This document shows positions 40,801 through 62,963 of a DNA stretch of 64,000 nucleotides, piece after piece. This DNA is from a virus. Numbering within the stretch: the stretch's first letter is position 1; each line of letters opens with the position of its first letter. The position numbers and the translations under genes are program-made. The notes under the pieces were generated by a model. That model searched no databases and was not told where the DNA came from. It saw nothing but the letters and a program-made list of their open reading frames with translations. The DNA lies in the IMG/VR virus record IMGVR_UViG_3300042988_001550; one strand, given 5' to 3'.

Positions 40801-43800
40801 AATGGTATTGCAGAGACGCTGGGATCTGAGCTAACAGAAGGTTCGCCTGAGCTAAGTGTTGCAGGTGATCGAGTAGCAGATGAGTTCTACACTGGAACCA
40901 GTTATCTTGGTGCGGATTACAGAACGCAGTCTTCCACAAACACGCTGCTCTACGATCCCGCCTCGTTCACTGTGGGACCGGCAGCATTCGCCCTTACTAA
41001 CGAACCCGACCTAGTTCCTAAGGACTCGCAGTACTACCTGACAGCTTCCAGAAACAGCATGATTGATGCTGGATCTGCCTGGGCAACTCTATACTCAGGT
41101 CAGCACGGTCTGGAAGGATTACTCCTCAAATCGACTCTAGTCACTGGGGTAGCCTCTTATGAGGTGTACCCCGTGTTCGGGTACCGCCCCAACGGGTTTG
41201 CTATCGAGTTCAACGGACAGCGCCGCCTGAACGTACCGTGGGTCTATCTAGCTGACGACTTCACGTTCCGCACATGGATGACGGTTCCCAGCGGCTCAAT
41301 TGGCGCTGGAGAAAGCCCGCAACTTCTAGCTCTTGGAAGCACAGGATTCCGTATCGGTCTTGGGTATGTGTCTGCATCGACATATGAAGTGGCGATCTAC
41401 CCGAGCCCGTCGCAGAGAATTGTTGTTGCTGAGTTCTCACCAGACACTGAGACATTCCTTTCAGTGACCTATCGCGAAGATGACAGTCAGTTTGAGACGA
41501 TCATCGCTGGTGGTAGGAACGGAAGCGGCACTACTTCTACGGATGCCGGCGTCACCGCGTCGTTCACTGGAACGCTGTTCCTTGGTGCTGGAAATACTGA
41601 TCCGATTCAAGACTCTGGTATCACCGCCACACTCGACGAGACAGTTCTGCTAGGCAGAGCAGCGTCTCCTGAGGAAGTTGCGTCGTGGTACTCTACCCGA
41701 TATTGGAGCGGTCCGCTGGGCGTCAGCGCTAACGGCTCTCCGCTATCCGAGCTGGGCGCGCAAATCGTCCTTCACTTCGATAAGGAAGACGCCCTTAGCA
41801 CCACGGTGTTCGATTACTCTGGAGAAGGTAATAACCTCTCGAAAGAGTCTGACGATGTTGATGACCTGGACAGCGACTGGTTCGTTTCTGGAATCATCGA
41901 CACGCCGCTGCCGTCTGAGAAAGACTACTTCCAGCTCGATCGTCGCGGCTACTACATCACGGATGGTAGAAGAGTAACCATTCCTGTCCTCGACGAGGAT
42001 GGTGTTCCGACTACGGTGGAATACACCGCCCGTTCTGGTGAAATCGCATACACCGCTCCCAATGTCGCTTACTACTTCACAGGGAGTAGCTGGCTCAAGG
42101 TAGATGCTTTCCCGTCCACCAGCTCGTCAGCCGTCAGCGTTAACCGCTGGACCGGACCTTATCAAGGGTTCTTTGAGAACGGGTACATTGACCCCAACAA
42201 CCAGGTTCGTTCTAGCGTCATACGGTTTGATGCAACACTCGGAACTGATCCCGCGTTCAAGTTCTCAGCTAAAAACAATGCCGCTATCAGCTCGATCAAG
42301 ATCGGCGGTACCGAGATCCTCGAAGTAGACACGAAAGCCGACATCGTCCAGCAACGTTGGGAAGTCGGTAACTCTTTCGTTCTTGCGGAAGCTGGTGCAG
42401 ATAACCAATCACCGAGAGAACAGTCGCTCTCCAGATACGTGTCGTCTACCTTCACCACAACTGGTGGAGTGGTTAGATCTTATCCAGCGTTCTCGCAGCT
42501 ATACACAGAGGTAAGCCCACCGCTAGAAGCGTCAGGCGACCTCTTCACGAAGCGGGTGAAGCTCGGCGTTGTAAACAACAATCACATTCTAGAGATAGAA
42601 TCATCGCTACAGCCGTATGCCTCGCTAAACAACGCTTACGTCGGCTGGGTCTATCAGCTGAGCCTATCTGATGCGCTGACCGAGGCGTTCTCTTTCCAGG
42701 TAGGGACTCAAGGTGCTGGTTACGGCCAGCCGATCTATCTTGGTAAGGCTGAGGAATCGGATAATCAGATCGAGACCACCTTTAAGGGCGGGGTCATTCT
42801 GACGAGTGTAGACAGAACGCTGGCAATCGGTATCTACCACCACGGACCGAGCAGACCGAACTACCGTATCGCCACTGATATCGAGTATCTGAGTACCCCG
42901 AACAGGGTTCTGCTGTCGTCTACGGAATACATCAGAAACTCTGGCGGCGTGGCCGGAGAGATGAGCAAGAAGCGCTATATCTGCGCCGGTAACTTTGTCG
43001 AAGTGGTATCGGCATTCGCGGAGCTGTATGCGCACCTGGAAGGACTTCCGGCTCCGACCTTCTCCTTCCCGGCGATAGCAATGCAGGCGGCTATTACCTC
43101 GCCGCTTAACCAGAACATCCTACTGAACCAGACAGTTGATTTTAACGTTCGCGCCATCAGTGCCTACGGAACGATCGACGCGCTGTACGCGGAGGATGTG
43201 ACAGCGACGGTTACCGACATTACAACCGGAACAGCTACGGACTACGTGGAGACGTTCGTTAACGGCGTGGCCGACTTCTCGGCTATACCGATGACGCAGA
43301 ACGGCTCTAAGTCAGTGTTCCTCACCAGCGGTTCGCTGCAGCCGGCTACTCTTTCACTAGATGTGTGGTGGCCTAAGCCTATCATCACTAGTATCACGCC
43401 CACTACAAGTGTTACCGGTACAGCGGACACTACCGTTCGGATCTTTGGCTCGCAGTTCTACTCTCCTCACGTAGCACAATGGCGGGCACCTGGATCAAAT
43501 ACATGGGTTGACCAAACAACCACATACGTCAGTCCTGGAGAGGTGCAGTTCTCTCTGCTGACCAGCATGAAGACGGTCGGTCGTCACGTGATTCGTGTAT
43601 CGACGCCGAGACTGCTGGGCGCTATATCTAACTCGGTGTTCCTACAGGTAACTGCGTCCGCGCCGGTATGGTCTCCGCACTACCTGTCGATCGACACCTA
43701 TCCGTCGACAACACTAATCAATTCCAGTAATCAGTACGCTGTGTCTCTAAGACACAGCCCGTCTGGTAACCTGGCCACAATCAACAGCGGTCGCGTAACA

Positions 43801-46800
43801 CTGACTGCTCAGCCGACTGGCTCGTTTACTGGAACCATGAGTGCGTGGGCATCGCCGGTTAACGGTGTCGCTCTGATTAACGGCTCAGTCAACAAGGCAG
43901 GTATCTACGACCTCCGCGCGGTCCACTCGCCACTGTCCGGTGGAGCAGCTAGAACGGACGTAGAGTATGCTGTACTTACTGTACAGAACCCGGACCCGGT
44001 TCTTAGCCGAGTGTCTCCGCCGTGGTTCTCACCTGAAGCGGCGTCTTTTGACGAGTTCCGGCTATTCGGCGCGAACTTTATCCAGAACGACAGTGTTGTA
44101 GAGTTCTGCCTTACTTCGCCGAACCACCCGAGCTTCTCTGGTTGGACAACCAGAACGACGGTATTTGATACCAGCTCTCAGATAATCGGTTATCTCACGA
44201 CCGGTGACATTGCATACGACTCGACAGAGAGATACAGATATGCGAGAGTGTCTACACGATACTCTGTGTCTGGCCTACCTTCAGCGTCAGTAAGCATTCT
44301 CGTGTCCCCCACCGCCGGAGTTCCGCCGGTCCCGACAGTATACAGCCCGTTCTTCCTAGGTGAAGTCGTCGAAGTCGGGTCGCTCACGTACAACGATCAG
44401 TTCGTTAACGAGACGGTCGACGTTCTAGTTCCTGTACTACACTCACTCATTCCGCTAGTATCGGCGTCAACAGCAACCGGATTGGTTAGAGTGGTGGCTT
44501 CCCCAGAGCTTCCTGAGTACACTGGCTCAGGCTCGGATAGCGCTGTTCCGCAAGTCGGCAACCAGATCGCCTTCCTATCTCCTCAGATATCGTCGTACGG
44601 TAGATATCGTCTATCCGCGACATACTCCCCCGGCGTCGGTGAGACAGCGGTTGTCGGTTCAGCCAGTGATTACTTCAACGTCTATCTAAGACCCGCCACG
44701 ATTAGCCGCGTGTCCCCGGTCATAACGAGCCCGCTCGGAACGCAGACGATCACGATCACTGGCGCAGGCTTCAACGTATCGAACAAGGTTTACCTGACGA
44801 ACGCCACCGCTAGCACGACTGTAACAGCTAGCCCGTCCTTCACGTCGGCTCAGAGCATTTCGTTCCAGCTATCCCCAGGAAACTACACAGGACAGCAGGA
44901 TCTTCTGCAGATCCAGGTAGGTACGCCGACTTGGAGCTACGCACTATCAAACAGTAGTTACCTAACACTGTATCCGACACCTAGCACCTACACGGTGTCT
45001 CTAAACCCAGACGTAAACAATCCGCCGCCTATCCTGACACAGACGATCGTTGTCGGAAACACGCTACCGACGATCGACGCACATGTCTTCGATAACGCCG
45101 GACAGCCTGCAACGTCTGTAACTGGCTTAGTGTCCCTCGCCATCACCAAGACCACAGGCGGTGTGGCTTACAGCGGAGCAGATTCGCCGGTCAACGGCTA
45201 CGCCTCCTTCTCTGGTATCACCGCTCCGGCGGCAGGTATCTACAACATCTCGGCTGAGTTCTCTCCGACCGGCGGAACTCCTGTAACAGCAGACGAGATC
45301 CAGTTCTACTCGCTAAACCCCGTCGGATACGCTACAAGCGTAAGCCCATCCACATTCGCGGCCAACGGTGTTCCGAGAACGATTAAGGTGTACGGCCAGA
45401 ACTTCCTTTCTGGAAGCACCGCTGTCCTGGTTAACGGAAGCGAGTCGGCTGCGTTTGTGCAGACAGTACACAGCCCGAAGGCGCTCACAGCAACACTAAG
45501 TACGTTCGCTTCTAACAGCGTCGGTACTCATCAGATCTCTATCAAGACGCAGTTTGCTGCTCCTGGCGGGCAGCCAGCTTATAGTGGTGTTTCTGTTCCT
45601 CTAACCATCACAGCTAACCCGTCGGCTCCAGCCGCTGGATCTGAGGAGAACCTGCCTGCTACCATCATCGTCTCTCCTCTAGGATATGCGAGAGTACGTT
45701 CACCTTCCGGACCAATCACGCCGATCTGGACACCTGTAGCTGTTCCAGGACAGGATCGCGGTAGCGATAGCCTGTGGCAGGCGTGCATCAATCGCGTTGG
45801 CCAGTACAACACGGCCAATCCTCCCGGTACTATCCAACCTACAGCGACCAGCCCCGGCGCTGCGGACGTGGTTGAAGTCACAGCCGGTATGTACTCTCAC
45901 GTCAAGTTCTACACCGGGAATGCAAGCGGTCCCCACGAGACAACAAACGCACAGGCTAGAGGACTCAGCCTAAGACAGCCCCTTATCATTCGTGCACGCA
46001 AGACTAACGGTGTTGCCGAGCCTGTAGTTATTCGCCCCTTCTCGTTCATCGACCCAGCAGACACGACATACGCGTGCATAACCTTCCAGGCAACACCAAC
46101 GTACAAGCCTGGCTTCATGCACTTCTACGATATTGGTTTCATGGGACGTCACTACGGTGTCGAGCATGTTCGATCAACGAACATGACCGGCTCGGTGGAC
46201 TACTACTATGAAGATCATCAGTTCCATCGTTGCCGTATCCTCGGCACGTATGACCATCGAACAATAGCGTTGGCGCCGTATAGGGTGACTCAATCAACCC
46301 AAAGTAATGTCCTCACTAATCAGAAGCACTGGAATTACCTAGGTCAGGAACTAATTGCTCCATCAACTAGCCCGTCCAATAGCTTCTTATGGAGAATGGA
46401 TATTCCAGCAGACCAGGTACATCGGGCGCTACATAGAAACCGTTATTGCGTCAGTGTGCCGGTCACCAGTCCGGCAGATCTGAATCCATTGCCCACCTGC
46501 CTAGGGGTTGTAATCGGCGCGGCACCGTCTAGTGAGTTTGTTTACACATCTAGCCAGAGCGTCTCGACTAGCAAGCTAATTCACCTCGGCCTTGATAAGG
46601 GAACCGGCGGCTCACCGCACTATGTTGAGCTGACATTGATGGCAGACGGTGAAAACGGCGGCGCAGGTGTAGCGAATTCCCGGTCAAATGTCTCTGTATG
46701 GAGCGGTTCTTGGCAGCTTCTCACTGTTACAAACGGAGTGGTTCCTGTCGGCACCGTTTACGACAATACTAAGTACCCCTTGACTGGTAGAGTTATTGGC

Positions 46801-49110
46801 GGCACGGCACTCTACCCGAACATCATCTTCCGCAATCCAGGGTACTACCACTTTACCGCTAGATTGCTGAACGGAGCTGGCGTAGAGATTCCGCTACCTA
46901 GTCCTGCCAAGAACATCTATGTTCAGGCAACCACACCGGGTATCTCTCAAAAAGAGACGTACATTGATAACAACTTCGTTGCAGTAAACCCCAACAACGC
47001 GGCTATTACATACGCTAAGACGTCTCTACCAAAACTAAAGGTAGTGAATAATCTCACAAGCATCTTCACCTTGCCTGTGAACGCTCTCTGTAACTACAAT
47101 CTGCTTCTAGCAGAGCAGCAGCCGGTTCAGGCTCCGATGATCACCGGTACGCTCGACTATACGATGGATTTGACCAGCTATAACGCTGGTTGGAGATGGG
47201 CGGACTCCTTCGGAACGCTCCTGTCCGGTAATCCAAGAGTATTGACCGGACAGATGATCAATGGTTTCGGTAACGTCTACTCGTCGCCGTCGCCGTCTGT
47301 AGCTGTCTATGGTAGACAAGGTCTGCGCTTAAAGTACACCGGTACGTCGACCACTTTCCTAAGTAACGCTGTAGCCGTCGTTGTCACTAAGCGGTCGGTA
47401 ACTCCTGCAGAAACAACACTAACAGTACCCACAAGCAACACACCGCCGCTAAAATACACGTTGGAATTTGTTGCTGGCGGATCAAGCACGACATACCAGA
47501 ACACTTCCGCGTCTGGTGCGTGGTGGCACTCAGTCAACGGTGGATACTCTGGATCGACTAACCTCGGCAGAGGTCGTGTCTTCTGTGCCAGCTGGCCAGG
47601 TAGCCCGAACCACCCGAACTACGATCCTGACACAACCGGCGTATTCTATCCCCATCCAGACGACTGCCCTTATCTGACGTACCCAGAAGGGCGCTCGATG
47701 AAACAGGGTAACCAGGTTTACACTGGCCAGGATTACCTGTGGGATGGTGGTTTCGTTGGCCACATCGCCGAAGAGCACGGGTTCTACTTCCACAACAACC
47801 GTAACGTGACAGTTAGAAATACACTGATCAAGTACACCGGTCGTACTGGAATCCAGAGTCTCAACTGGTGGCAAGATAACAAGCCAAGTGATACTGTCGG
47901 GGACCTTAACCACCCGAATAACCGAGAGAACGTGTCGCAGTTCGGCTACTCTCTGGTGTTCGAGAAGAACACGTTGAAGGATTGTGGGATTACCACACCG
48001 ACACGTCAGCTCACGGTAGCTGACTACGCGGGCAGTGTATACATCCGTAACAACAAGATGTTGTTAGGATTCAACGGCAAGCTGCGCCACTGGGAATCGA
48101 TCAATGCTGGCGCAATCGTCGTGTACGATGGTAGAGCCTTCGTACAGGCATTAGGCCTGCCTAATGATCACTGGAACATCTATCCAGATCACTTCATGGT
48201 CGATCAGTTCGATAACCCTGCGGTTGACTGGCAACACATTAAATTGGCCAATCTAGAGTACACACCAATAGGGTCGAGAGACTACTATCCTGGTGGAGCT
48301 GTGAACCCTTACATAGGATTGAGCCCGTCGCACCCGTACTACTACCTACGCAGACTGTTTGAAAACTATCCCAGACTCGGGTTTGCTTCAGGACAGCAGT
48401 ATCAGGTCGTGCAGAACGGTCTGGTAAACTGGACACCCAACCACCCGTATTACAACCGGGCGTACGGTCACCCTAGATTCTCTGCCGCGCCGTTCACTAA
48501 GTCGATCACCTTAACAAAGCCCCCGCCCAGTGGAACCGGTCCAAGCGTCAGCGTGACGTTAGGATCTCCGACAGTAGGGTTCTATGGTGGTACTCAAAAG
48601 GTTGGTGCCGTCTACGTAAGTGACAACATCATCTGGGGAAACAGCTGGATCTCCGGCGCTAGACCCCTAGCAACCGCACTATCAGGAGACCCGTACTTCA
48701 GCGAGTTTGTTCATGCTGACTGGGTTTCTCCTGGTATACGCCCACAAGGCATGATCGCCCTGGATACGACGGGTGGATATACTGGAACAGTGTTGCAGGA
48801 AGGAACAGGATTCCAGCACCCGCTGGTGGCCTTCGGAGGAATGCGTAACCTCATCCTTAACCACAACTCGATCAAGCCTGGCAACACAGTAGTCGGTAAG
48901 ATTGACCTGAATCCGAAACAGGCCACTGGCAACGACCTGTACTATCCTCCCATCCTATCAGTAACCGGCTCGCACAACATCTTTGCGACTGCTCCTGGTA
49001 AGTCCGCCGGATTCCGTTACTACTTCACGGACACGACAAATCCGATTGTAGCTGCCCTACGCAGCCAGCTTTTGAGCAGCGTCTCTCCCAGCCCTAACCT
49101 GTATTTCTGA
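37816..49110 (+). CDS. giant tail-fiber/adhesin-like protein, 3764 aa, with LamG-like, repeated IPT/TIG-like and beta-helix-like segments
   Basis: One 11.3 kb ORF. A LamG-like segment near nt 41260..41600 (TGTLFLGAGNT). At least four IPT/TIG-like units between nt 43380 and 45470 (PIITSITPTTSVTGTADTTVRIFGSQF, LSRVSPPWFSPEAASFDEFRLFGANF, ATISRVSPVITSPLGTQTITITGAGF, VSPSTFAANGVPRTIKVYGQNF). A beta-helix-like NNRNVTVRNTLIKYTG segment near nt 47560..48900. Confidence 0.8.
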   Translation: MSTNKFDPTPLFDALPSFWKDYYKDKDVLSTVYEALLRIQEIDYNRLFTVDDSKTLSSVPVLTRYPVVYDQLNDWETTGQKHAHTKISVAFDPTLVTPFDATTQYYRIRFPDTIFKYDSQLYLDGRAIPASFYTKVFEPYYSGEFTDGETVGTTVYLHAQRLAQLFAKPLSTEDYELITEDPDQFDNYGNVSEDPEAFADYGNLGWSAIEAVTTATMYAFKSVLPLKAVTDGSTSSFELDLSPQTLSTDESTVVVESVDVTGRVAVSYDSAYTTVTPVGSFSWQTGQTFKVTWQDGTIQQVSAATGLPIYLTKLDPIASVQLLTNFQIYPSVTTVDINGVSVGNNQLYPGTIVRVVDSVGTQSAVITDATNRVTFERPIDTNTAKVFFHGIDLLSVDLTETALDFNTPPNKSVTLRIDGVISNDHQHVTETFDIEVITRNIVLANTPATGAMTGNESEFLPCRVFKDGQLLLAGTDYSLVGSILIFEEDLLPPCKVSVYYEISGEVAHTHYHQVFQNLASNNRLTIDREVSADDTFELYYDSLLNTHQSQLDLVGGRSITLDNVFPENITIVFHGIQRGWAYRHVIADRMDARYGYRGHVKSIGFIQDGLITASATLSSQDGDIAVVEENGDTVLYSNTKVIDAWMFDVDVDEQLISNVWGALVDNVEASTDDQAVRITSLLAAARSPAFVANMENFGSIVLGSRFLEEDGVSLGIRTDDNGDRVVSIRPTDTQSDNFDVQLIDGAEVRITDGSVLPRLFAVNKLLSVIDKDLSSVPWLAFMAESLSSDFRFAKRLDAKTSKKLTSDNGQFDQVTGVLTDYSINFYEEEVRVGDQIRLEFAIFDFTLPDNPLEERDPVVANVLEVINPNQIRIKSPEIVDIAGFGENSYGSGPFGGGIYTPSLRSYTVWTRVTRKLDSFYKLDTALASAQAFVSGEDVQLTNEELAKLLRHHVFVLKLNWDRMVSAEQLATLQQLIRTLKPAKTTALVYTELEDGNGIAETLGSELTEGSPELSVAGDRVADEFYTGTSYLGADYRTQSSTNTLLYDPASFTVGPAAFALTNEPDLVPKDSQYYLTASRNSMIDAGSAWATLYSGQHGLEGLLLKSTLVTGVASYEVYPVFGYRPNGFAIEFNGQRRLNVPWVYLADDFTFRTWMTVPSGSIGAGESPQLLALGSTGFRIGLGYVSASTYEVAIYPSPSQRIVVAEFSPDTETFLSVTYREDDSQFETIIAGGRNGSGTTSTDAGVTASFTGTLFLGAGNTDPIQDSGITATLDETVLLGRAASPEEVASWYSTRYWSGPLGVSANGSPLSELGAQIVLHFDKEDALSTTVFDYSGEGNNLSKESDDVDDLDSDWFVSGIIDTPLPSEKDYFQLDRRGYYITDGRRVTIPVLDEDGVPTTVEYTARSGEIAYTAPNVAYYFTGSSWLKVDAFPSTSSSAVSVNRWTGPYQGFFENGYIDPNNQVRSSVIRFDATLGTDPAFKFSAKNNAAISSIKIGGTEILEVDTKADIVQQRWEVGNSFVLAEAGADNQSPREQSLSRYVSSTFTTTGGVVRSYPAFSQLYTEVSPPLEASGDLFTKRVKLGVVNNNHILEIESSLQPYASLNNAYVGWVYQLSLSDALTEAFSFQVGTQGAGYGQPIYLGKAEESDNQIETTFKGGVILTSVDRTLAIGIYHHGPSRPNYRIATDIEYLSTPNRVLLSSTEYIRNSGGVAGEMSKKRYICAGNFVEVVSAFAELYAHLEGLPAPTFSFPAIAMQAAITSPLNQNILLNQTVDFNVRAISAYGTIDALYAEDVTATVTDITTGTATDYVETFVNGVADFSAIPMTQNGSKSVFLTSGSLQPATLSLDVWWPKPIITSITPTTSVTGTADTTVRIFGSQFYSPHVAQWRAPGSNTWVDQTTTYVSPGEVQFSLLTSMKTVGRHVIRVSTPRLLGAISNSVFLQVTASAPVWSPHYLSIDTYPSTTLINSSNQYAVSLRHSPSGNLATINSGRVTLTAQPTGSFTGTMSAWASPVNGVALINGSVNKAGIYDLRAVHSPLSGGAARTDVEYAVLTVQNPDPVLSRVSPPWFSPEAASFDEFRLFGANFIQNDSVVEFCLTSPNHPSFSGWTTRTTVFDTSSQIIGYLTTGDIAYDSTERYRYARVSTRYSVSGLPSASVSILVSPTAGVPPVPTVYSPFFLGEVVEVGSLTYNDQFVNETVDVLVPVLHSLIPLVSASTATGLVRVVASPELPEYTGSGSDSAVPQVGNQIAFLSPQISSYGRYRLSATYSPGVGETAVVGSASDYFNVYLRPATISRVSPVITSPLGTQTITITGAGFNVSNKVYLTNATASTTVTASPSFTSAQSISFQLSPGNYTGQQDLLQIQVGTPTWSYALSNSSYLTLYPTPSTYTVSLNPDVNNPPPILTQTIVVGNTLPTIDAHVFDNAGQPATSVTGLVSLAITKTTGGVAYSGADSPVNGYASFSGITAPAAGIYNISAEFSPTGGTPVTADEIQFYSLNPVGYATSVSPSTFAANGVPRTIKVYGQNFLSGSTAVLVNGSESAAFVQTVHSPKALTATLSTFASNSVGTHQISIKTQFAAPGGQPAYSGVSVPLTITANPSAPAAGSEENLPATIIVSPLGYARVRSPSGPITPIWTPVAVPGQDRGSDSLWQACINRVGQYNTANPPGTIQPTATSPGAADVVEVTAGMYSHVKFYTGNASGPHETTNAQARGLSLRQPLIIRARKTNGVAEPVVIRPFSFIDPADTTYACITFQATPTYKPGFMHFYDIGFMGRHYGVEHVRSTNMTGSVDYYYEDHQFHRCRILGTYDHRTIALAPYRVTQSTQSNVLTNQKHWNYLGQELIAPSTSPSNSFLWRMDIPADQVHRALHRNRYCVSVPVTSPADLNPLPTCLGVVIGAAPSSEFVYTSSQSVSTSKLIHLGLDKGTGGSPHYVELTLMADGENGGAGVANSRSNVSVWSGSWQLLTVTNGVVPVGTVYDNTKYPLTGRVIGGTALYPNIIFRNPGYYHFTARLLNGAGVEIPLPSPAKNIYVQATTPGISQKETYIDNNFVAVNPNNAAITYAKTSLPKLKVVNNLTSIFTLPVNALCNYNLLLAEQQPVQAPMITGTLDYTMDLTSYNAGWRWADSFGTLLSGNPRVLTGQMINGFGNVYSSPSPSVAVYGRQGLRLKYTGTSTTFLSNAVAVVVTKRSVTPAETTLTVPTSNTPPLKYTLEFVAGGSSTTYQNTSASGAWWHSVNGGYSGSTNLGRGRVFCASWPGSPNHPNYDPDTTGVFYPHPDDCPYLTYPEGRSMKQGNQVYTGQDYLWDGGFVGHIAEEHGFYFHNNRNVTVRNTLIKYTGRTGIQSLNWWQDNKPSDTVGDLNHPNNRENVSQFGYSLVFEKNTLKDCGITTPTRQLTVADYAGSVYIRNNKMLLGFNGKLRHWESINAGAIVVYDGRAFVQALGLPNDHWNIYPDHFMVDQFDNPAVDWQHIKLANLEYTPIGSRDYYPGGAVNPYIGLSPSHPYYYLRRLFENYPRLGFASGQQYQVVQNGLVNWTPNHPYYNRAYGHPRFSAAPFTKSITLTKPPPSGTGPSVSVTLGSPTVGFYGGTQKVGAVYVSDNIIWGNSWISGARPLATALSGDPYFSEFVHADWVSPGIRPQGMIALDTTGGYTGTVLQEGTGFQHPLVAFGGMRNLILNHNSIKPGNTVVGKIDLNPKQATGNDLYYPPILSVTGSHNIFATAPGKSAGFRYYFTDTTNPIVAALRSQLLSSVSPSPNLYF

Positions 49111-57507: not shown

Positions 57508-57536
57508 AAAAAGAAAGCCACCGGTTAAGGTGGCCT
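57508..57536 (-). terminator. rho-independent terminator
   Basis: Minus strand reads GCCACC-ttaacc-GGTGGC then TTTCTTTTT. Confidence 0.65.
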
Positions 57537-57541
57537 TCTAA

Positions 57542-57570
57542 GATGGAGCCGACGATGGGATTTGAACCCA
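57542..57570 (-). pseudogene. tRNA 3'-end fragment (T-arm, acceptor 3' strand, CCA) with no matching 5' half
   Basis: ATGGG-TTCAAAT-CCCAT-CGTCGGC-T-CCA. I could not find the complementary acceptor strand within 120 nt. Confidence 0.4.
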
Positions 57571-58375
57571 TAACCCCTTCATTACCTGCCCACTTTGAAC
57601 TTTCGTTCGACTACATTACACTAGTCTAGTGGGATGGACTTTCTCTTCACCCTCGTCTTTACGTTAGGGTGCGCCGTGTAAAGTCTCTACACTTGCCCGG
57701 TTCTTTTAGGAACCTGCTAGCTCGGGATTGCCATTTTAAAGGTTTCCCCGACTTAGCGGCGTCCACTTTATAGGTTTCCCTAGAAAGGTCCGTAATCATG
57801 ACTTACTGCTGCGCTGAGTGTCAAACAACGTTCTCTCGAAAGGACAAAGCACGTTCTGTAAACGCATTCTGTTCTCGATCTTGTGCCGCCAGCTATAACA
57901 ACAGGAAGAAACCTAAGAGGGCGCGAAGCCGTCGGGATTCTAGTTGTGTTAGTTGCGGAAAAAGTACCCATAACCGTAGATTCTGCGATTTGGTGTGCTT
58001 CCACAGACTTAGGGCCGATACAAAGATCGCCAACTGGTTGTCAGGCCACGAGACGCGCGTCACCTCTCATCGAAGAGACGCTATCCGCTCCTGGCTGTTG
58101 AAGGACCAGCTAGAGAAGTGTGCCTTGTGCGCCCAATCAGGAAATTGGAACGGCAAGCCACTGCTTTTTGTTTTGGACCATATCAATGGAGACCACACCG
58201 ATAACAGCAGAACCAATCTACGCCTTATCTGTCATAACTGTGACTCACAGTTACCTACGTACAAAGGCAGAAATCGCGGTTTCGGGCGATACATCAGAAG
58301 ACAACGATACGCAGACGGTAAATCGTTCTAACAAATGAAGAGCTCTGCCAATTGAGCTACATCGGCAATTGAAAG

Positions 58376-58452
58376 TGGTGGCGGGGGTGAGATTCGAACT
58401 CACGACCTTCAGCTTATGAGGCTGACGAGCTACCGGACTGCTCTACCCCGAC
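58376..58452 (-). tRNA. tRNA-Met(CAU) (elongator-type, or Ile2 if lysidine-modified)
   Basis: GTCGGGG/CCCCGCC (one mismatch), GAGC/GCTC, TCAGC/GCTGA with loop CTCATAA, GTGAG-TTCGAAT-CTCAC, and CCA. Confidence 0.65.
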
Positions 58453-58455
58453 ACC

Positions 58456-58531
58456 TGGTCCACCCACTAGGATTTGAACCTAGGACCTTCCGCGTATCAG
58501 ACGGATGCTCTACCAACTGAGCTATGGGTGG
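58456..58531 (-). tRNA. tRNA-Ile(GAU)
   Basis: CCACCCA/TGGGTGG, GCTC/GAGC, loop CTGATAC, CTAGG-TTCAAAT-CCTAG, and CCA. Confidence 0.75.
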
Positions 58532-58533
58532 AT

Positions 58534-58609
58534 TGGTGGAGGCTAAGGGACTTGAACCCTTGGCCTATAGCTTGCAAAGCTATTGCTCTACCAGCTGAGC
58601 TAAGCCCCC
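58534..58609 (-). tRNA. tRNA-Ala(UGC)
   Basis: Acceptor GGGGGCT/AGCCTCC with the G3.U70 Ala identity pair; ATAGC/GCTAT with loop TTTGCAA; CCA. Confidence 0.8.
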
Positions 58610-58610
58610 A

Positions 58611-58688
58611 CTATTCTTTTGTTCTGTTGATTCGGAGGTCGATGGATGCGAGCGCCAGTACGACTAGAAAGACGATGACGTATTTCAT
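58611..58688 (-). CDS. 25-aa hydrophobic micro-ORF inside the tRNA array (MKYVIVFLVVLALASIDLRINRTKE)
   Basis: ATG preceded by AAAGGAA. The ORF exactly fills the tRNA-Asn/tRNA-Ala spacer. Confidence 0.3.
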   Translation of the reverse strand: MKYVIVFLVVLALASIDLRINRTKE

Positions 58689-58707
58689 GCATTCCTTTCT
58701 TGTTGGA

Positions 58708-58782
58708 TGGCTGTGGGGGCAGGACTTGAACCTACAACTGGCGCATTAACAGTGCGCTGCTCTACCATTGAGCTACCCCACA
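58708..58782 (-). tRNA. tRNA-Asn(GUU)
   Basis: TGTGGGG/CCCCACA, GCGCA/TGCGC with loop CTGTTAA, G73, and CCA. Confidence 0.75.
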
Positions 58783-58790
58783 GTGAGAGA

Positions 58791-58867
58791 TGGCGGAACT
58801 GACGGGACTTGAACCCGCGATCTTCGCCGTGACAGGGCGACGCTTTAGCCAACTAAGCTACAGTTCC
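58791..58867 (-). tRNA. tRNA-Asp(GUC)
   Basis: GGAACTG/CAGTTCC, TCGCC/GGCGA with loop CTGTCAC, G73, and CCA. Confidence 0.75.
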
Positions 58868-58990
58868 GAAAAAGAACTACCGTACTAACAGACATGTCTG
58901 CCAATTCCATCACTGCGTCCAGGTGAGACTCGAACTCACACGCAGCCGTCGCCGGTACTGCATCTGTGCTCCGGTAGTTCCTGAAAGGTG
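58868..58990 (-). other. degenerate tRNA-like element (intact T-arm, Leu/Ser-like D-loop remnant, partial copy of the tRNA-Asp 5' end)
   Basis: GTGAG-TTCGAGT-CTCAC flanked by CTGCGT/ACGCAG. Downstream lies TG-GAATTGGCAGAC. The pieces do not fold into a canonical cloverleaf in this order. Confidence 0.3.
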
Positions 58991-59064
58991 GGTGACCGGT
59001 GGGACTCGAACCCACAACCCCCAGGACCACAACCTAGTGTTCTAACCAATTGAACTACGGCCAC
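58991..59064 (-). tRNA. tRNA-His(GUG)
   Basis: GTGGCCG/CGGTCAC (G.U), CTAGG/CCTGG with loop TTGTGGT, C73, CCA not encoded. Confidence 0.65.
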
Positions 59065-59249
59065 ATCACAAGAAAAGGCGAGCAAGGTGTCCTGTAAGGG
59101 TTGTTTTACAAAGGTAACCCTCACAGAGCGGCTCGCCAGGACCCAAGTCTGCTAAACGTGGGTGTAACGATGTAAGCAAATTCGCCTAGGAACGATGGAT
59201 ATCTGCGAGATCGCGGAAGGTAACGTTCATAGTTCGGCTTACATCTATA

Positions 59250-59325
59250 TGGTGATCCCAGAGAGATTCGAACTCTCGTTGTCGGGTTGAAAACCCGGTG
59301 TCCTGACCGACTAGACGATGGGACC
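59250..59325 (-). tRNA. tRNA-Glu(UUC)
   Basis: GGTCCCA/TGGGATC, CCGGG/CCCGA with loop TTTTCAA, GAGAG-TTCGAAT-CTCTC, and CCA. Confidence 0.65.
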
Positions 59326-59446
59326 GTTGGTACGAAGGTGTCTAAGCTTCCCGTCACCCTATGAATTCCGATGCCCTCATCGGCGCTTTGCGGGCGCTCA
59401 CGGCTGTTGCTTAGACGATTACAGTAGGGTCTGTCTCCCTTATGGA

Positions 59447-59792
59447 TGGTGGACCTGGTCGGAGTCGAACCGACGTGTTTGAACTGTCGTTAGTATTCTT
59501 CTACACGCTTGTCCGATTTTTGTTCCACTGTCCAGGCATTAACCGGCAACTATCCCGGCAGTGGTTCCGCAGTATACGCCCTAGGTCGAAGCGGGTCTCT
59601 CCAGGGTGTCCTAATAGTTGCAGCCACTCCCTTATTAGGAATCAAGGGTGGCTGGGATTAGCGGAGTCTAGGCCGCCATCGCGAGCTGAGGTTCAGCATT
59701 TTAGTTTTCCCAAGAAGGATTAACGAGCTTACTTGAGATGCTCGGCGTGCTTCACTACATTTGACTGAACAAATCGAAACCAGTTCAGGCCC
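59447..59792 (-). ncRNA. ssrA: tmRNA (ssrA-like), 346 nt, tag ORF 59668..59697
   Basis: 5' GGGCCTG pairs with 3' CAGGTCC-A-CCA and includes the G3.U70 Ala identity pair. The T-arm is GTCGG-TTCGACT-CCGAC. GUGAAGCACGCCGAGCA parallels E. coli GGUGCAUGCCGAGG. The tag frame is aaaactaaaat-GCT GAA CCT CAG CTC GCG ATG GCG GCC TAG, giving (A)AEPQLAMAA. Confidence 0.7.
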
Positions 59793-60060: not shown

Positions 60061-60173
60061 TGGTCGGCCCGGAGGGACTCGAACCCCCAACCCTCCGCAT
60101 ATCAGACGGCGCCCAGTTGTTACACCAGGGGCGGATCATAAATCCACTGCTCTACCATTGAGACTACGGGCCG
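60061..60173 (-). tRNA. tRNA-like gene with anticodon UAU (Ile-type) and a ~41-nt insertion between the anticodon stem and T-arm
   Basis: CGGCCCG/CGGGCCG, GTGGA/TCCGC with loop TTTATGA, GGGGG-TTCGAGT-CCCTC, A73, and CCA. It is 113 nt long. Confidence 0.4.
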
Positions 60174-60259: not shown

Positions 60260-60646
60260 TTATAGCTTAGTCTTGGTCTTCGTGGTCTGAAAAGTTGTGG
60301 TTTTTTCGACCAGCGTTTCAATTGGATAGCCTTTGCGCATCCAGTCAGCGGAGTTAATCGCCTGCAACCAGTCCGCTACCGTCGGGATGAATCCGCAATC
60401 TTCTTTGACGTGCTGCTCCCCAATCAACCGGGTAGGGATGACCTTACCATCACTGTTGGTGATCGTAGGACCAAAAGCAGCCTCAAGCATGAAGATGCCA
60501 GCCGAATGGTGCAGCATCGCTCGGTGACGGAAATCGGCGATATGTGCTTTTGACTGATCGAACCACAGATGTAGATCGTAATAGTCTTCCCACTTACCGC
60601 CAAAAAGAACCGCAGAGGATCTTGCGTGATCGTAGCAGGTACCCAT
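60260..60646 (-). CDS. hypothetical protein, 128 aa
   Basis: ATGA-coupled to the upstream ORF. Confidence 0.5.
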   Translation of the reverse strand: MGTCYDHARSSAVLFGGKWEDYYDLHLWFDQSKAHIADFRHRAMLHHSAGIFMLEAAFGPTITNSDGKVIPTRLIGEQHVKEDCGFIPTVADWLQAINSADWMRKGYPIETLVEKTTTFQTTKTKTKL

Positions 60647-61038
60647 TACTCACCTATCTTCAGGTGGCTAGACGACGTATCATATGTGATGGTGGCTTGG
60701 TTAACTGTAAGGACGGCGTCCCCGTTCCTAAGGTTGATGACAACCGAACCGTTCCCTCCCTCATTATTCCACCAATCTGGACCACCGTGGGCGACTTCCA
60801 TGGCGGCGTCCTTCAAGCTTCTATAAGCGTCACGTGCTGATTGAGCTGATACCTGTTTTTCAACAAGGATAGCTGTTAACCAGTCTGGGACGATCCTTTC
60901 AAAGTTCTGAGCCGGATGATGCGGGTGCGTTACATATGAGTCGTCAATATCACCGCTATCTCCACTCCCACTGAAAATGACCTCCATCGACTCAAAGCCT
61001 AGTTTCCTCAGAAGTCTTCTTGCTCTTTTTGTTTCCAC
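60646..61038 (-). CDS. hypothetical protein, 130 aa, acidic
   Basis: First ORF downstream (on the minus strand) of the long non-coding stretch. Confidence 0.5.
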   Translation of the reverse strand: METKRARRLLRKLGFESMEVIFSGSGDSGDIDDSYVTHPHHPAQNFERIVPDWLTAILVEKQVSAQSARDAYRSLKDAAMEVAHGGPDWWNNEGGNGSVVINLRNGDAVLTVNQATITYDTSSSHLKIGE

Positions 61039-61376
61039 GTTTTCCTTAGTAAAAGAATGGGGTAGCTACTCCCCATCCAGTGTTGACTTGTATTCCCAGT
61101 CGGTCACGTTTCACCGAACGGTCAACAGCAGAGCTGGTCGTCTTTGTTTTGTGTCGTCAGCCCTAGGTGTGAGACCGCTACAGTCACCTAGAACTTATCG
61201 TGCCGTGAGCTCACAGCACGAGACCATGGATTTCTCCCGCGCTAGTACTTAAGGTCGGTTTAGCGTCCACTAGCAGGACGTGTTAGTGCCCCCTACAGAT
61301 TGCTCTGTAGGGGGCGACCGTTAACCCTTTAAGCAGTTCAGCTGCTCATAGATCTTATGCCACAAATCCGCTGGAT

Positions 61377-62963
61377 TTAGTCCTTGGCGAAATTGCTGAT
61401 GAGAGCCGGAGTCTCGGTATCGTACCCGACGATGTCCAGCTGGTGCGGGTCTTGAGGATCCGCGATGGTGAAGCCGGTAGCCGTCATGCCGACGACGATG
61501 GCCTTGGCGTTGGGGCGGTTGCGTTCCTTGCGGAATCGATTCAGCGCCTGGTACGGCTGCACGCCGCCGTTCGTCTCATTGTCAGTCATGATGACGAAGC
61601 AATCCACGTCACGCTTCTGGGAGGTCGCGTACGAGTAGGCCGCCGAGCAGTCGGTTGATCCGAAGTTGTTCATGACAACCTTGTGCATAGCAGTCGCCAG
61701 GGTATCGTTTGCATGGATACCCAGGTCCTTGATCGTGCTGGCGAAGCCAACGATCTCGTGGTAGGGCTCACGTCGAGCCAAAACCATTGCCAGGCACGCG
61801 GTACCCATCGCCGGGGTGAACCCAGGGAAGACGGAGCCCGCCGAGCCGTACCCACCACCAGCCATCGACCCCGAAACGTCAAGCGCCAGCAAGAAGTTCT
61901 TGTTGGACGGTTCGACGTTGTTGAAGGCGTGGTAGAACAGCGCTTCCGTGACATCGGTGATGGTGCTCACCGGGGTCCAAGACAGGCTGCCCTTGATGCC
62001 ATGACCCTGACGGTACGTGTAGTAGGCGGCCAGCGCCTGCATCGGATGGATACGCGACTTTTTGATCGCTTCCTTATCCGACAGCTTCTGCTGGACCAAC
62101 TTCGTAGCCGAGCTGAGAGGCTTCAGCAAGCCGTTCGCCGTCATGCGCGCCAGGTTGCGGGTTAGCGCATTCAGCGGCATGTTCGGCAGCAAGGCTTCCC
62201 AGATCTCCGGATTCCCCAGCTGCTCCGTCGGAATCATTTCCCAGGTGATCGACTTGTTGCGTCGAATCACAGCGAGGATACCATTCTTGTCCGCCTTGCT
62301 GATTTCCTCCAGATCCGCGACGATCTGAGGAATACCTTCAGCAATCACATTCTTGCACGCCCACTGGAACAGTGCCTGCTGTTCCTTGAGAAGCGGCTTC
62401 GGGTGAGCCATGCGCAGCACGTCACGATGCGTCCACCCGTTGCGGTTGCGGTACTTGGCCATCTGATAGGCGAGGTCGTCGCCCTTCTTGTTGATGTACC
62501 AATCACCAACCGTCGTGCAGAGCATACGCCCCCAGCCGCGCATGTTCTGGACCTCTTCCGTGAACTGGAACAGGTGGGTACCCGTCCGGATCACCTGATA
62601 GAAGACGGCCTTGGCAGCCACCTTCGTCGCGAGGTCCTTGCTGCTCATCGCCATTGCCAAAGCAAAAATTGCGGGGTCTTGCTTCGGCGCACGCCCACCG
62701 ACGCTGATGTCGCGGATGACACCAACCGTCTTGGGACCGTCAGCATTGAGGCAGCGGGTCACCACCTCAGCATTGTCCACAGTCAGCTTGCGCTCGGACA
62801 CGTAGTACGTGCCGCCGCTCGACCCGAGAATCAGAAATCGTTCCAACCGCTTCCAGTCGTCAGTCTGGAACACATACCCACCGGTGTTGTTCAGTACCTG
62901 GTCTGAACGTGTCTTCTCGTGCACCGGTGCAGGAGTGTTCAGGATCTTGCCGTAGTTCTTCAC
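61377..62963 (-). CDS. rsr: Ro60/Rsr ortholog (TROVE domain plus C-terminal vWA/MIDAS)
   Basis: N-terminus NNTGGYVFQTDDWKRLERFLILGSSGGTYYVSERKLTVDNAEVV matches Ro60. The C-terminus has LALDVSGSM...TDNETNG (MIDAS). GTG start follows an AGGAGGG ribosome-binding site. Confidence 0.8.
   Translation of the reverse strand: MKNYGKILNTPAPVHEKTRSDQVLNNTGGYVFQTDDWKRLERFLILGSSGGTYYVSERKLTVDNAEVVTRCLNADGPKTVGVIRDISVGGRAPKQDPAIFALAMAMSSKDLATKVAAKAVFYQVIRTGTHLFQFTEEVQNMRGWGRMLCTTVGDWYINKKGDDLAYQMAKYRNRNGWTHRDVLRMAHPKPLLKEQQALFQWACKNVIAEGIPQIVADLEEISKADKNGILAVIRRNKSITWEMIPTEQLGNPEIWEALLPNMPLNALTRNLARMTANGLLKPLSSATKLVQQKLSDKEAIKKSRIHPMQALAAYYTYRQGHGIKGSLSWTPVSTITDVTEALFYHAFNNVEPSNKNFLLALDVSGSMAGGGYGSAGSVFPGFTPAMGTACLAMVLARREPYHEIVGFASTIKDLGIHANDTLATAMHKVVMNNFGSTDCSAAYSYATSQKRDVDCFVIMTDNETNGGVQPYQALNRFRKERNRPNAKAIVVGMTATGFTIADPQDPHQLDIVGYDTETPALISNFAKD

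What the first reader, a model, noticed from the sequence alone, without database searches (positions are those of the whole stretch)
59447..59792. Phage-encoded tmRNA with tag (A)AEPQLAMAA
The minus-strand RNA has a tRNA-Ala-like acceptor formed by its 5' end (GGGCCUG) and 3' end (CAGGUCC-A-CCA), including the G3.U70 alanine identity pair. It has a perfect T-arm, and a 5' region that parallels E. coli tmRNA (GUGAAGCACGCCGAGCA versus GGUGCAUGCCGAGG). A short in-frame tag begins after aaaactaaaat and ends LAMAA-TAG, which is the hydrophobic Ala-Ala C-terminus expected for ClpXP or tail-specific-protease targeting. The ORF track's + strand ORF 59442..59723 overlapping this locus is spurious. A viral tmRNA implies the phage adjusts ribosome rescue, possibly to suit the decoding load of its own tRNA set.
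Basis: partly seen in the sequence, partly recalled or inferred. Interest (0 to 1): 0.65.

Follow-up and report, generated by a model that had tools for sequence, protein, structure and literature searches.

The report
Phage tmRNA carrying a bacterial-type degradation tag
This is a genuine, intact ribosome-rescue RNA (tmRNA) encoded in the RNA-gene cluster of an uncultivated large tailed phage; phage tmRNAs are already known, but this one's nine-residue tag matches the tag used by Abyssubacteria-like and planctomycete bacteria, which points to the likely host.

Summary
**Observation confirmed.** ARAGORN and Rfam RF00023 (101.1 bits, gathering 47, E 2.6e-38, full length) both call a tmRNA at 59447..59792 (-) with tag AEPQLAMAA.

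**Structure.** The acceptor stem with G3:U70, A73 and CCA, the T-arm, P2, helix 5 and all four pseudoknots can be drawn (94/94 pairs).

**Conservation.** Two metagenomic relatives carry a 346-nt tmRNA at the same position (Ro60 – tRNA-like RNA – tmRNA – tRNAs).
- Window versus the closer relative shows 9 double compensatory changes, against 0-1 in shifted controls.
- There are no substitutions across the resume context, tag ORF and helix 5.

**Context.** It looks like a large tailed phage: baseplate J, a 3,764-aa ORF, 14 tRNAs plus an intron-split tRNA-Thr, homing-endonuclease ORFs and no housekeeping genes. No SmpB was found in about 70 kb.

**New information.**
- The tag AEPQ[L/F]AMAA occurs in only 14 of 185,579 species genomes. 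These are Planctomycetota, Abyssubacteria-like MAGs and one Acidimicrobiales MAG.
- The rest of the RNA is only 35-46% identical to theirs. This suggests selection to match a host degron.

**Verdict.** Phage tmRNAs are known (Bxz1-like mycobacteriophages, phage G, huge phages), so this is a new member of a known kind. The antisense ORF is spurious.

The parts
59447..59792 (-). tmRNA gene (standard one-piece form, 346 nt, CCA encoded)
   Evidence: ARAGORN. Rfam RF00023 101.1 bits, E 2.6e-38. Orthologues found in L004 and L005.
59786..59792 (-). 5' strand of acceptor stem, GGGCCUG (G3 of the G3:U70 pair)
   Evidence: 7/7 pairs; the G:U pair is invariant in 3 sequences, and positions 4-6 covary.
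59447..59474 (-). T-arm (GUCGG-UUCGACU-CCGAC), 3' acceptor strand CAGGUCC, discriminator A, CCA
   Evidence: Two of the T-stem pairs covary.
59709..59744 (-). Pseudoknot PK1 (tmRNA 49-53/65-69 interleaved with 56-61/79-84)
   Evidence: 5/5 and 6/6 pairs. An equivalent knot is present in L005.
59668..59697 (-). Resume codon GCU and tag reading frame AEPQLAMAA, stop UAG
   Evidence: No substitutions between window and L004 across tmRNA 71-141 (P = 7e-5). The same tag occurs in bacterial tmRNAs.
59656..59680 (-). Helix 5 enclosing the stop codon (tmRNA 113-114/136-137 and 115-120/129-134)
59513..59654 (-). Pseudoknots PK2 (tmRNA 139-184), PK3 (187-226), PK4 (229-280)
   Evidence: all stems fully paired in the window. 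There are compensatory changes in L004, and equivalent knots with different sequence in L005.
59442..59723 (+). Antisense ORF, spurious
   Evidence: stop codon in L004, and no codon-position bias in substitutions.
58376..59325 (-). Seven tRNA genes directly downstream on the same strand (Glu, His, Asp, Asn, Ala, Ile, Met)
57544..58366 (-). tRNA-Thr(UGU) gene split in the anticodon loop by a 747-nt group I intron (57586-58332). The intron carries an antisense HNH-like ORF (57798-58331, +).
   Evidence: Rfam RF00028 57.6 bits at 57617-57809. Halves read. The in-silico spliced RNA is called tRNA-Thr(tgt) by ARAGORN. HNH_3 hit is weak.
57512..57539 (-). Intrinsic terminator-like hairpin closing the RNA-gene array
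   Evidence: 11-bp stem, T run.
60064..60173 (-). Conserved 100-110-nt tRNA-like RNA upstream of the tmRNA. It is a cloverleaf with two extra hairpins in the variable region, a UAU anticodon-like triplet and an ACCA end.
   Evidence: Rfam tRNA 44.2 bits. Orthologues in L004 and L005. 7 of 28 predicted pairs covary. Not called by ARAGORN, and no YrlA match.
60260..61038 (-). DUF6915 and DUF6878 genes between Ro60 and the RNA array
   Evidence: Same order in L004.
61377..62963 (-). Ro60-like (TROVE + vWA) RNA-binding protein heading the module
   Evidence: Homologues at 72% and 55% identity head the same module in L004 and L005.

Best explanation
This is a functional, standard one-piece tmRNA encoded by an uncultivated large tailed phage. 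It lies inside a same-strand array of RNA genes: a tRNA-like RNA, the tmRNA, seven tRNAs, and an intron-split tRNA-Thr followed by a terminator. The array sits downstream of a Ro60-like gene.

**Shown**
- The RNA has every sequence and structure element of tmRNA.
- These elements are kept by compensatory substitutions in two related phage contigs.
- The tag reading frame and its surroundings are under the strongest constraint.
- The tag equals the tag of certain bacterial tmRNAs, while the rest of the molecule does not resemble them.

**Inferred**
- The precursor is cut out by host RNase P and 3' processing enzymes.
- It is charged with alanine by host AlaRS through G3:U70 and A73.
- It is delivered to stalled ribosomes by host SmpB and EF-Tu. 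No phage SmpB was found in the sequence available.
- It adds (A)AEPQLAMAA to the nascent chain.
- Because the tag copies the host-type degron, tagged products would be fed to the host's own proteases.
- The likely benefit is to keep ribosome-rescue capacity up during infection. At that time host ssrA expression may fall, and cleaved or degraded mRNAs and tRNAs may multiply stalled ribosomes.
- The tag match suggests a host among Abyssubacteria-like (Hydrogenedentota) or Planctomycetota bacteria.
For: - **tmRNA calls.** ARAGORN and Rfam agree.
- **Structure.** The full model gives 94/94 pairs in the window and 85/86 in spliced L005.
- **Covariation.**
  - Window versus L004 (307/346 identical) shows 9 double compensatory changes, 4 single changes that keep the pair, and 4 broken pairs. 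Shifted controls give 0-1 double changes.
  - RNAalifold finds 25 covarying pairs among 91.
- **Constraint on the tag.** There are zero substitutions in tmRNA 71-141 (P = 7e-5).
- **Synteny.** The order Ro60 – tRNA-like – tmRNA – tRNAs holds in L004 and L005.
- **Phage context.**
  - Baseplate J / PHROG baseplate wedge.
  - Its only tblastn relatives are large myoviruses.
  - Sigma factor, phosphoesterases and glycosyltransferases.
  - No housekeeping genes in the window or 7 kb beyond it.
- **Tag match.** The fully degenerate pattern for AEPQ[L/F]AMAA hits 14 of 185,579 species genomes, and every hit is inside a tmRNA gene.
  - Eleven are Planctomycetota (ten by record title; L090 because its tmRNA is 96% identical to that of Phycisphaerales L092).
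  - L084 (exact tag) is Abyssubacteria-like by its FtsZ. L096 is assigned to that group from a shared radical-SAM neighbour and an FtsZ hit on a contig of its length.
  - Overall identity to the window tmRNA is only 35-46%.
- **Terminator.** A terminator follows the last RNA gene.
Against: - There are no expression, aminoacylation or tagging data.
- No SmpB was found, so function depends on an unverified fit to a host SmpB.
- No capsid, portal or terminase gene was identified in the window, so the viral origin rests on the baseplate gene plus overall gene content.
- The host inference is indirect.
  - The tag family spans at least two phyla plus one Acidimicrobiales-labelled MAG.
  - The relative L005 has a different tag (ANRPVLAAAA).
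- ARAGORN does not call L005's tmRNA even after in-silico splicing. Rfam scores the interrupted gene at 58 bits.
- Only three family members were found, so covariation rests on few sequences.
Confidence: 0.85

Rival explanations
1. The tmRNA is the bacterial host's own ssrA gene. On this view the window is a bacterial chromosome or a prophage junction, and the tmRNA marks the edge of an integrated element.
For: - ssrA is a frequent integration site for prophages and genomic islands (PMC11915505).
- Baseplate J proteins also occur in bacterial tailocin-like clusters (my own knowledge).
Against: - The gene is full length and embedded between a tRNA-like RNA and seven tRNAs on the same strand.
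- Both flanks have the same composition and the same kind of unannotatable ORFs.
- No housekeeping gene and no integrase family appeared in the Pfam scans.
- By contrast, real bacterial tmRNA loci such as L084 sit next to ftsZ and ftsA.
- The same module recurs in two other contigs with phage-type content, including a 123-kb one.
- The RNA is only 35-46% identical to the bacterial tmRNAs retrieved by tag.
Confidence: 0.05
2. The RNA acts as a decoy or inhibitor of host trans-translation, for example by titrating SmpB, rather than as a working tagger. This has been proposed for the TLD-only tmRNA-like RNA of mycobacteriophage DS6A.
For: - A TLD-only molecule strongly inhibits tmRNA, perhaps by titrating SmpB (PMC4131195, PMC11915505).
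- No phage SmpB was found, so the phage RNA must compete with host tmRNA for host SmpB.
Against: - The mRNA-like part is complete: resume context, in-frame tag, stop in helix 5 and PK1-PK4.
- That part is the most conserved region, with 0 of 39 substitutions falling in tmRNA 71-141.
- The tag matches a bacterial degron residue for residue. A decoy would not need any of this.
Confidence: 0.07
3. The tmRNA-like sequence serves as an attachment (attP-type) homology for integration into the host ssrA gene.
For: Many temperate elements carry a copy of the 3' end of ssrA (PMC11915505).
Against: - The longest exact block shared with any tag-sharing bacterial tmRNA is 11 nt, and none is at the 3' end.
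- The gene is complete, not a 3' fragment.
- No integrase family was detected in the window.
Confidence: 0.02

Closest known systems
Bacterial standard (one-piece) tmRNA / SsrA, Rfam RF00023
   Same: - The full architecture is present: a tRNA-Ala-like domain with G3:U70, A73 and CCA; P2; PK1; resume codon; a short tag ending in Ala-Ala; the stop in helix 5; and PK2-PK4.
- It scores 101 bits, well above the gathering score.
- The tag AEPQLAMAA is identical to that of an Abyssubacteria-like MAG (L084). It differs by one residue from the planctomycete tag AEPQFAMAA.
   Different: - It is encoded in a phage-like genome within a tRNA array.
- It is only 35-46% identical overall to the tag-sharing bacterial tmRNAs.
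- No cognate SmpB gene is nearby.
Phage-encoded tmRNAs: Bxz1-like mycobacteriophages, Bacillus phage G (PMC4131195), and huge phages from metagenomes (PMC7162821)
   Same: - A complete ssrA gene in a large tailed phage that also carries many tRNA genes.
- Bxz1-like phages also encode a Ro-like protein.
   Different: - There is no detectable nucleotide similarity to any of the 50,697 phage records searched.
- Here the tmRNA is in one module with Ro60. In Dandelion no tmRNA is annotated within 20 kb of Ro.
- Some huge phages also carry SmpB (PMC7162821); none was found here.
- A tag match to a specific bacterial tag family is shown here. I have not checked whether it holds for the known phage tmRNAs.
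Intron-form tmRNA genes, with a group I intron in the T-loop (PMC11915505)
   Same: - This applies to the relative L005, not to the window. Its tmRNA gene is interrupted by 651 nt between T-loop nucleotides 6 and 7, which is the main 'position 7' site.
- A U.G pair can form at the 5' splice site, the intron ends in G, and it holds an ORF with a LAGLIDADG-like motif.
   Different: - The window's own gene is uninterrupted.
- The L005 insert is not matched by Rfam RF00028 at E<1.
- Its endonuclease ORF is antisense.
- The intron-form genes catalogued in that paper are bacterial. It names none in a phage (its 'phage' and 'virus' passages mention only the DS6A form).
TLD-only tmRNA-like RNA of mycobacteriophage DS6A
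   Same: It is a phage-encoded relative of tmRNA.
   Different: DS6A lacks the tag reading frame and is thought to inhibit tmRNA (PMC4131195). The present RNA has a complete, strongly conserved tag frame.

Membership tests
tmRNA (standard one-piece form) | The 5' and 3' ends pair into a 7-bp acceptor stem next to a T-arm (the tRNA-like domain). | tested here: met
   7/7 and 5/5 pairs; acceptor positions 4-6 and two T-stem pairs covary in three sequences.
tmRNA (standard one-piece form) | Alanine identity: G3:U70 wobble pair, discriminator A73, 3' CCA. | tested here: met
   G:U is invariant in all three family members.
tmRNA (standard one-piece form) | An internal tag reading frame without a start codon. 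It begins at an Ala or Gly resume codon and ends in hydrophobic residues plus a stop in helix 5. | tested here: met
   GCU resume codon, AEPQLAMAA, and UAG in the loop of helix 5. The frame is intact, with no substitutions, in L004. L005 encodes ANRPVLAAAA.
tmRNA (standard one-piece form) | PK1 upstream of the resume codon, and PK2-PK4 downstream. | tested here: met
   all eight stems are fully paired in the window. Compensatory changes occur in L004, and equivalent knots are present in L005. The pseudoknots were drawn by hand and checked by script, not predicted de novo.
tmRNA (standard one-piece form) | Covariance-model score above the curated threshold. | tested here: met
   RF00023 101.1 bits against 47, full-length match.
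tmRNA (standard one-piece form) | Works with SmpB; is aminoacylated and tags stalled chains. | not testable with these tools
   No SmpB family was found among the window ORFs scanned, and no Pfam family recorded for the upstream genes suggests SmpB. The host partner is unknown.
Phage-encoded gene (virus of a bacterium) | Virion hallmark genes on the same contig. | tested here: inconclusive
   - Baseplate J / wedge is present, followed by a 3,764-aa ORF with a TIG domain.
- No capsid, portal, sheath or terminase was recognised.
- Four large ORFs have no PDB sequence match.
Phage-encoded gene (virus of a bacterium) | Absence of cellular housekeeping genes, with gene content typical of large phages. 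| tested here: met
   - 14 tRNAs plus a split tRNA, a group I intron and an HNH-like ORF are present.
- Most ORFs have no family match.
- There are no ribosomal or core metabolic genes in the window or 7 kb upstream.
YrlA / bacterial Y RNA (considered for the tRNA-like RNA at 60064-60173) | Match to the YrlA covariance model, and a Ro-binding stem formed by the 5' and 3' ends. | tested here: not met
   There is no RF02553 match at that locus at E<1. The RNA has normal tRNA topology with an ACCA end. For comparison, Dandelion has a sub-threshold YrlA hit next to its Ro gene.

The most novel reading that the evidence does not exclude
The Ro60 gene, the unusual 100-110-nt tRNA-like RNA, the tmRNA and the tRNA array could form one conserved phage 'RNA damage-control' module. 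In this reading the tRNA-like RNA is a new kind of Ro60 partner (a Y-RNA substitute with normal tRNA topology). The tmRNA, carrying a copy of the host degron, clears ribosomes stalled by host RNA-cleaving defences, and its tag can be used to predict hosts in poorly known phyla (Abyssubacteria/Hydrogenedentota or Planctomycetota).
Probability: 0.15. Interest if true: 0.6.

Novelty: new member of a known kind. Interest (0 to 1): 0.33.

Why it matters
Phage tmRNAs are known, so the existence of this one changes little. Three points add some value.

- **Host clue.** The tag is kept identical to a rare bacterial tag family while the rest of the RNA has diverged. This argues that the phage RNA really tags proteins for the host's proteases. 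It also gives a simple host clue for an uncultivated phage lineage, pointing to Abyssubacteria-like or planctomycete bacteria, for which I know of few described phages.
- **Conserved module.** The gene sits in a conserved module with a Ro60-like protein and an unusual tRNA-like RNA. That module is worth testing as a unit.
- **Intron-form relative.** A relative carries an intron-form tmRNA gene. The catalogue consulted describes such genes from bacterial genomes and names none in a phage.

Tried and rejected
- **blastn against reference phages.** The tmRNA gave no match against 50,697 phage records. Megablast of 14 kb matched only a tRNA-Asn.
- **IMG/VR scans.**
  - The 3' end pattern gave 0 hits.
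  - Ro60 peptide patterns gave 0 confirmed hits.
  - Two conserved 16-mers gave 75 loci. All were chance matches: ARAGORN and an nhmmer profile found no tmRNA in them.
- **JGI metagenome scan.** A two-block tmRNA pattern gave 0 hits, so that collection lacks even the source contig.
- **Host taxonomy from the GDP-mannose dehydratase.** The closest homologues carry no organism names.
- **Extending the contig.** Exact-protein look-ups of the edge ORFs were not on record. A third look-up gave 7 kb more upstream with no informative genes.
- **PDB sequence searches.** Four large unknown ORFs gave nothing.
- **SmpB search.** This is weak on its own, but the Pfam scans agree.
- **Rejected readings.**
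  - Host ssrA or prophage junction.
  - attP fragment (longest shared block 11 nt).
  - Coding antisense ORF.
  - YrlA identity for the tRNA-like RNA.
- **L005 spliced tmRNA.** ARAGORN does not call it even after in-silico splicing.

Full report
**1. Observation**

ARAGORN calls a tmRNA at 59447..59792 on the minus strand. Its tag is AEPQLAMAA*, coded at positions 96-125 of the RNA. Rfam RF00023 matches the same coordinates over the whole model (1-374): 101.1 bits against a gathering score of 47, E 2.6e-38.

- 5' GGGCCUG pairs with 3' CAGGUCC, including G3:U70.
- The discriminator is A, and CCA is encoded.
- The T-arm GUCGG-UUCGACU-CCGAC is perfect.
- The GCACGCCGAG block aligns with the consensus CAUGCCGAGG.
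- The reading frame GCU GAA CCU CAG CUC GCG AUG GCG GCC UAG follows AAAACUAAAAU.

**2. Anatomy**

I wrote out a full tmRNA model and checked it by script. All positions are in tmRNA numbering; window coordinate = 59792 - p + 1.

| Element | Positions |
|---|---|
| P1 (acceptor) | 1-7 / 336-342 |
| P2 | four segments within 20-48 / 285-315 |
| PK1 | 49-53 / 65-69 interleaved with 56-61 / 79-84 |
| Helix 5 | 113-120 / 129-137, with the UAG stop in its loop |
| PK2 | 139-149 / 160-172 with 153-160 / 177-184 |
| PK3 | 187-192 / 209-214 with 199-202 / 223-226 |
| PK4 | 229-239 / 257-268 with 247-252 / 275-280 |
| T-arm | 319-323 / 331-335 |

All 94 pairs are standard pairs. That test is passed.

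**3. Relatives and conservation**

The window matches contigs of JGI metagenome 3300047552 and Logan runs SRR35181315/16, so this is uncultivated sequence. The tmRNA has no blastn match in 50,697 phage records. Pattern scans of IMG/VR and the JGI metagenome collection gave no relatives.

Relatives came from the neighbouring Ro60-like protein.
- **L004** (Ro60 72% identical) has Ro60, DUF6878, DUF6915, a ~100-nt tRNA-like hit and then a 346-nt tmRNA. That tmRNA has the same tag and scores 113 bits in Rfam. tRNAs follow.
- **L005** (Ro60 55% identical, on a 123-kb contig) has Ro60, the tRNA-like RNA, and an Rfam tmRNA hit of 58 bits that ARAGORN misses.

In L005 the 3' part of the T-arm and acceptor was missing from the hit. 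From the 5' strand GGGGGUG I predicted ...CACCUCCACCA, and found TCCCAGCACCTCCACCA 651 nt downstream. Once spliced, the RNA is again exactly 346 nt, with tag ANRPVLAAAA.

Window and L004 differ at 39 of 346 positions.
- In my model, 9 pairs changed on both sides and stayed paired, 4 changed on one side and stayed paired, and 4 are broken.
- Sliding the 3' partners by 1-3 positions gives 0-1 double changes and 19-23 broken pairs.
- None of the 39 differences falls in positions 71-141, which hold the end of PK1, the resume context, the tag frame and helix 5 (P = 7e-5 under uniform placement).

L005 forms the same helices with different sequences (85/86 pairs). RNAalifold on the three sequences finds 25 of 91 nested pairs with double-sided changes, and the G3:U70 pair is invariant. 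The gene is therefore under selection as a structured RNA with a protected tag frame.

The + strand ORF 59442..59723 is not conserved. It has a stop in L004, substitutions fall 11/10/12 over codon positions, and 20 of 92 residues differ.

**4. Genomic context**

The tmRNA lies in a same-strand array of RNA genes, in this order:
- a tRNA-like RNA (60064-60173);
- the tmRNA;
- seven tRNAs (59325-58376);
- a tRNA-Thr(UGU) gene split in its anticodon loop by a 747-nt group I intron;
- a strong terminator-like hairpin at 57539-57512.

The intron's Rfam RF00028 core is at 57617-57809 (57.6 bits), and an antisense HNH-like ORF lies within the intron. These points rest.

Upstream lie DUF6915, DUF6878 and the Ro60-like gene.

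Elsewhere the window has:
- a second tRNA cluster;
- a baseplate J / wedge protein whose only tblastn relatives are large myoviruses such as Salmonella phage Arash, Bacillus phage G and Gordonia phages;
- a 3,764-aa ORF with a TIG domain, an SNF2 helicase, a sigma-factor-like protein, phosphoesterases and sugar-modifying enzymes.

Most ORFs have no family match. No housekeeping gene, integrase or SmpB was seen in the window or 7 kb beyond it. I take the contig to be part of a large tailed phage genome (about 0.9 confidence). The caveat is that no capsid or terminase gene was recognised.

**5. The tag and the likely host**

A fully degenerate DNA pattern for AEPQ[L/F]AMAA plus stop was scanned over one genome for each of 185,579 species. 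It matched 14 contigs, and every match lies inside a tmRNA gene (for L091 the pattern position is shown).

| Group | Loci | Tag |
|---|---|---|
| Planctomycetota (Phycisphaerales, Gemmataceae/Gemmatales); ten by record title, L090 by 96% tmRNA identity to L092 | 11 contigs | AEPQFAMAA |
| Abyssubacteria-like (phylum Hydrogenedentota in NCBI taxonomy) | L084 | AEPQLAMAA (exact) |
| Abyssubacteria-like | L096 | AEPQFAMAA |
| Acidimicrobiales-labelled MAG contig, 74% GC | L095 | AEPQLAMAA (exact) |

The Abyssubacteria assignment rests on L084. Its tmRNA sits next to ftsZ and ftsA, and its FtsZ is 92% and 83% identical to Candidatus Abyssubacteria proteins. L096 is placed in the same group less directly. 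It shares the radical-SAM neighbour, and an FtsZ hit lies on a contig of its length.

Overall identity of these tmRNAs to the window's is only 35-46%. L084 and L096 are the highest, and they are also closest in GC (56.7% and 53.7% against 52.3%). The longest shared exact block is 11 nt, so the phage gene is not a recent copy and not an attachment-site fragment.

A nine-residue tag kept identical while the rest of the RNA has diverged is best explained by selection to match the degron read by the host's proteolytic machinery. This is inference. It gives a host lead (Abyssubacteria-like or Planctomycetota) with perhaps 0.4-0.5 confidence. An attempt to get independent host evidence from a sugar-metabolism gene failed for lack of names.

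**6. Mechanism**

Shown: an intact, conserved tmRNA gene with alanine identity elements, a resume context, a tag frame and four pseudoknots, inside a tRNA array that ends in a terminator.

Inferred from established knowledge of trans-translation:
- processing by RNase P and 3' exonucleases;
- charging by host AlaRS;
- delivery by host SmpB and EF-Tu;
- tagging with (A)AEPQLAMAA;
- degradation of the tagged chains by host proteases.

Why a phage would carry it is not established. The most likely reading is that it maintains rescue capacity during infection.

A decoy role like that proposed for the TLD-only DS6A RNA (PMC4131195) is unlikely, because the tag region is the most conserved part.

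**7. Comparison with what is known**

- Phage ssrA genes are on record for eight Bxz1-like mycobacteriophages, Bacillus phage G and DS6A (PMC4131195).
- tmRNAs and SmpB are reported in huge phages from metagenomes (PMC7162821).
- Ro-like proteins are annotated in 375 phage records. In the Bxz1-like phage Dandelion, no tmRNA is annotated within 20 kb of the Ro gene, and a weak YrlA-like hit lies just upstream of it.
- Intron-form tmRNA genes with a T-loop group I intron, some with LAGLIDADG genes, are catalogued in bacteria (PMC11915505).
  - L005's interruption is at the main site ('position 7').
  - It has a U.G splice-site pair, a terminal G and a LAGLIDADG-like ORF.
  - Rfam's group I model does not match it.

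**8. Verdict**

It is a new member of a known kind.

The added value has three parts:
- the match to a rare bacterial tag family, which gives a host lead;
- the conserved Ro60 / tRNA-like RNA / tmRNA / tRNA module;
- the intron-form gene in a relative.

Interest is about 0.33.

Noticed in passing
window 57544-58366 (-): A tRNA-Thr(UGU) gene is split in the anticodon loop by a 747-nt group I intron (57586-58332; Rfam core 57617-57809). The intron carries an antisense HNH-like ORF (57798-58331, +). ARAGORN calls the in-silico spliced 76-nt RNA as tRNA-Thr(tgt); neither tool calls the genomic form.
   Followed up: yes
window 60064-60173 (-); L004 4360-4459; L005 12940-13041: A conserved 100-110-nt tRNA-like RNA lies between the Ro60 module and the tmRNA. 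It has a C1:G72 acceptor stem, D-, anticodon- and T-arms, a conserved UAU triplet in the anticodon position, two extra hairpins in the variable region and an encoded ACCA. 7 of 28 predicted pairs covary. It is not called by ARAGORN and is not a YrlA match. It could be an odd tRNA-Ile(UAU) or a Ro60 partner RNA.
   Followed up: partly
L005 13088-14084 (relative, Logan SRR13612670 contig of 123 kb): The orthologous tmRNA gene is interrupted in the T-loop, between loop nucleotides 6 and 7, by a 651-nt insert. The insert has group I splice-site features (U.G pair in P1, terminal G) and an antisense 146-aa ORF with a LAGLIDADG-like motif (AAGLIDGEG). The spliced RNA is 346 nt with tag ANRPVLAAAA. 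Rfam RF00028 does not match the insert. This is an intron-form tmRNA in a phage-like contig.
   Followed up: partly
window 61377-62963 (-), with 60260-61038 (-): A Ro60-like protein (TROVE + vWA) is followed by DUF6878 and DUF6915 genes. The same order occurs in L004. Ro-like proteins occur in 375 reference phage records.
   Followed up: partly
window 61039-61376 (-); L004 3107-3469: The intergenic region after Ro60 holds a long hairpin with compensatory changes and a ~45-nt block that is nearly identical in L004 (GTCCTGCTAGTGGACG.TAAACCG..CTTAAGT.CTAGCGCGG). It ends at a terminator-like hairpin (61078-61055). It may be a small RNA, but with only two sequences this is unresolved.
   Followed up: partly
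L083-L096 (bacterial genome contigs): The tag AEPQ[F/L]AMAA is confined to 14 of 185,579 species genomes: Planctomycetota, Abyssubacteria-like MAGs (L084, L096) and one 74%-GC contig binned as Acidimicrobiales (L095). The last is odd for an actinobacterium and may be misbinned.
   Followed up: partly
window 37816-49110 (+): A single 3,764-aa ORF directly follows the baseplate J gene. Its only Pfam hit is one IPT/TIG domain (residues 2295-2375). It is presumably a giant tail fibre or host-recognition protein.
   Followed up: no
window, one of the 44 ORFs scanned (not located): One ORF matches PF20274 cREC_REC (cyclic-phosphate processing receiver domain, E 2.8e-13), a domain linked to RNA-repair systems. 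Others match PD-(D/E)XK endonuclease, pyrimidine dimer glycosylase, KAS III and GDP-mannose dehydratase.
   Followed up: no
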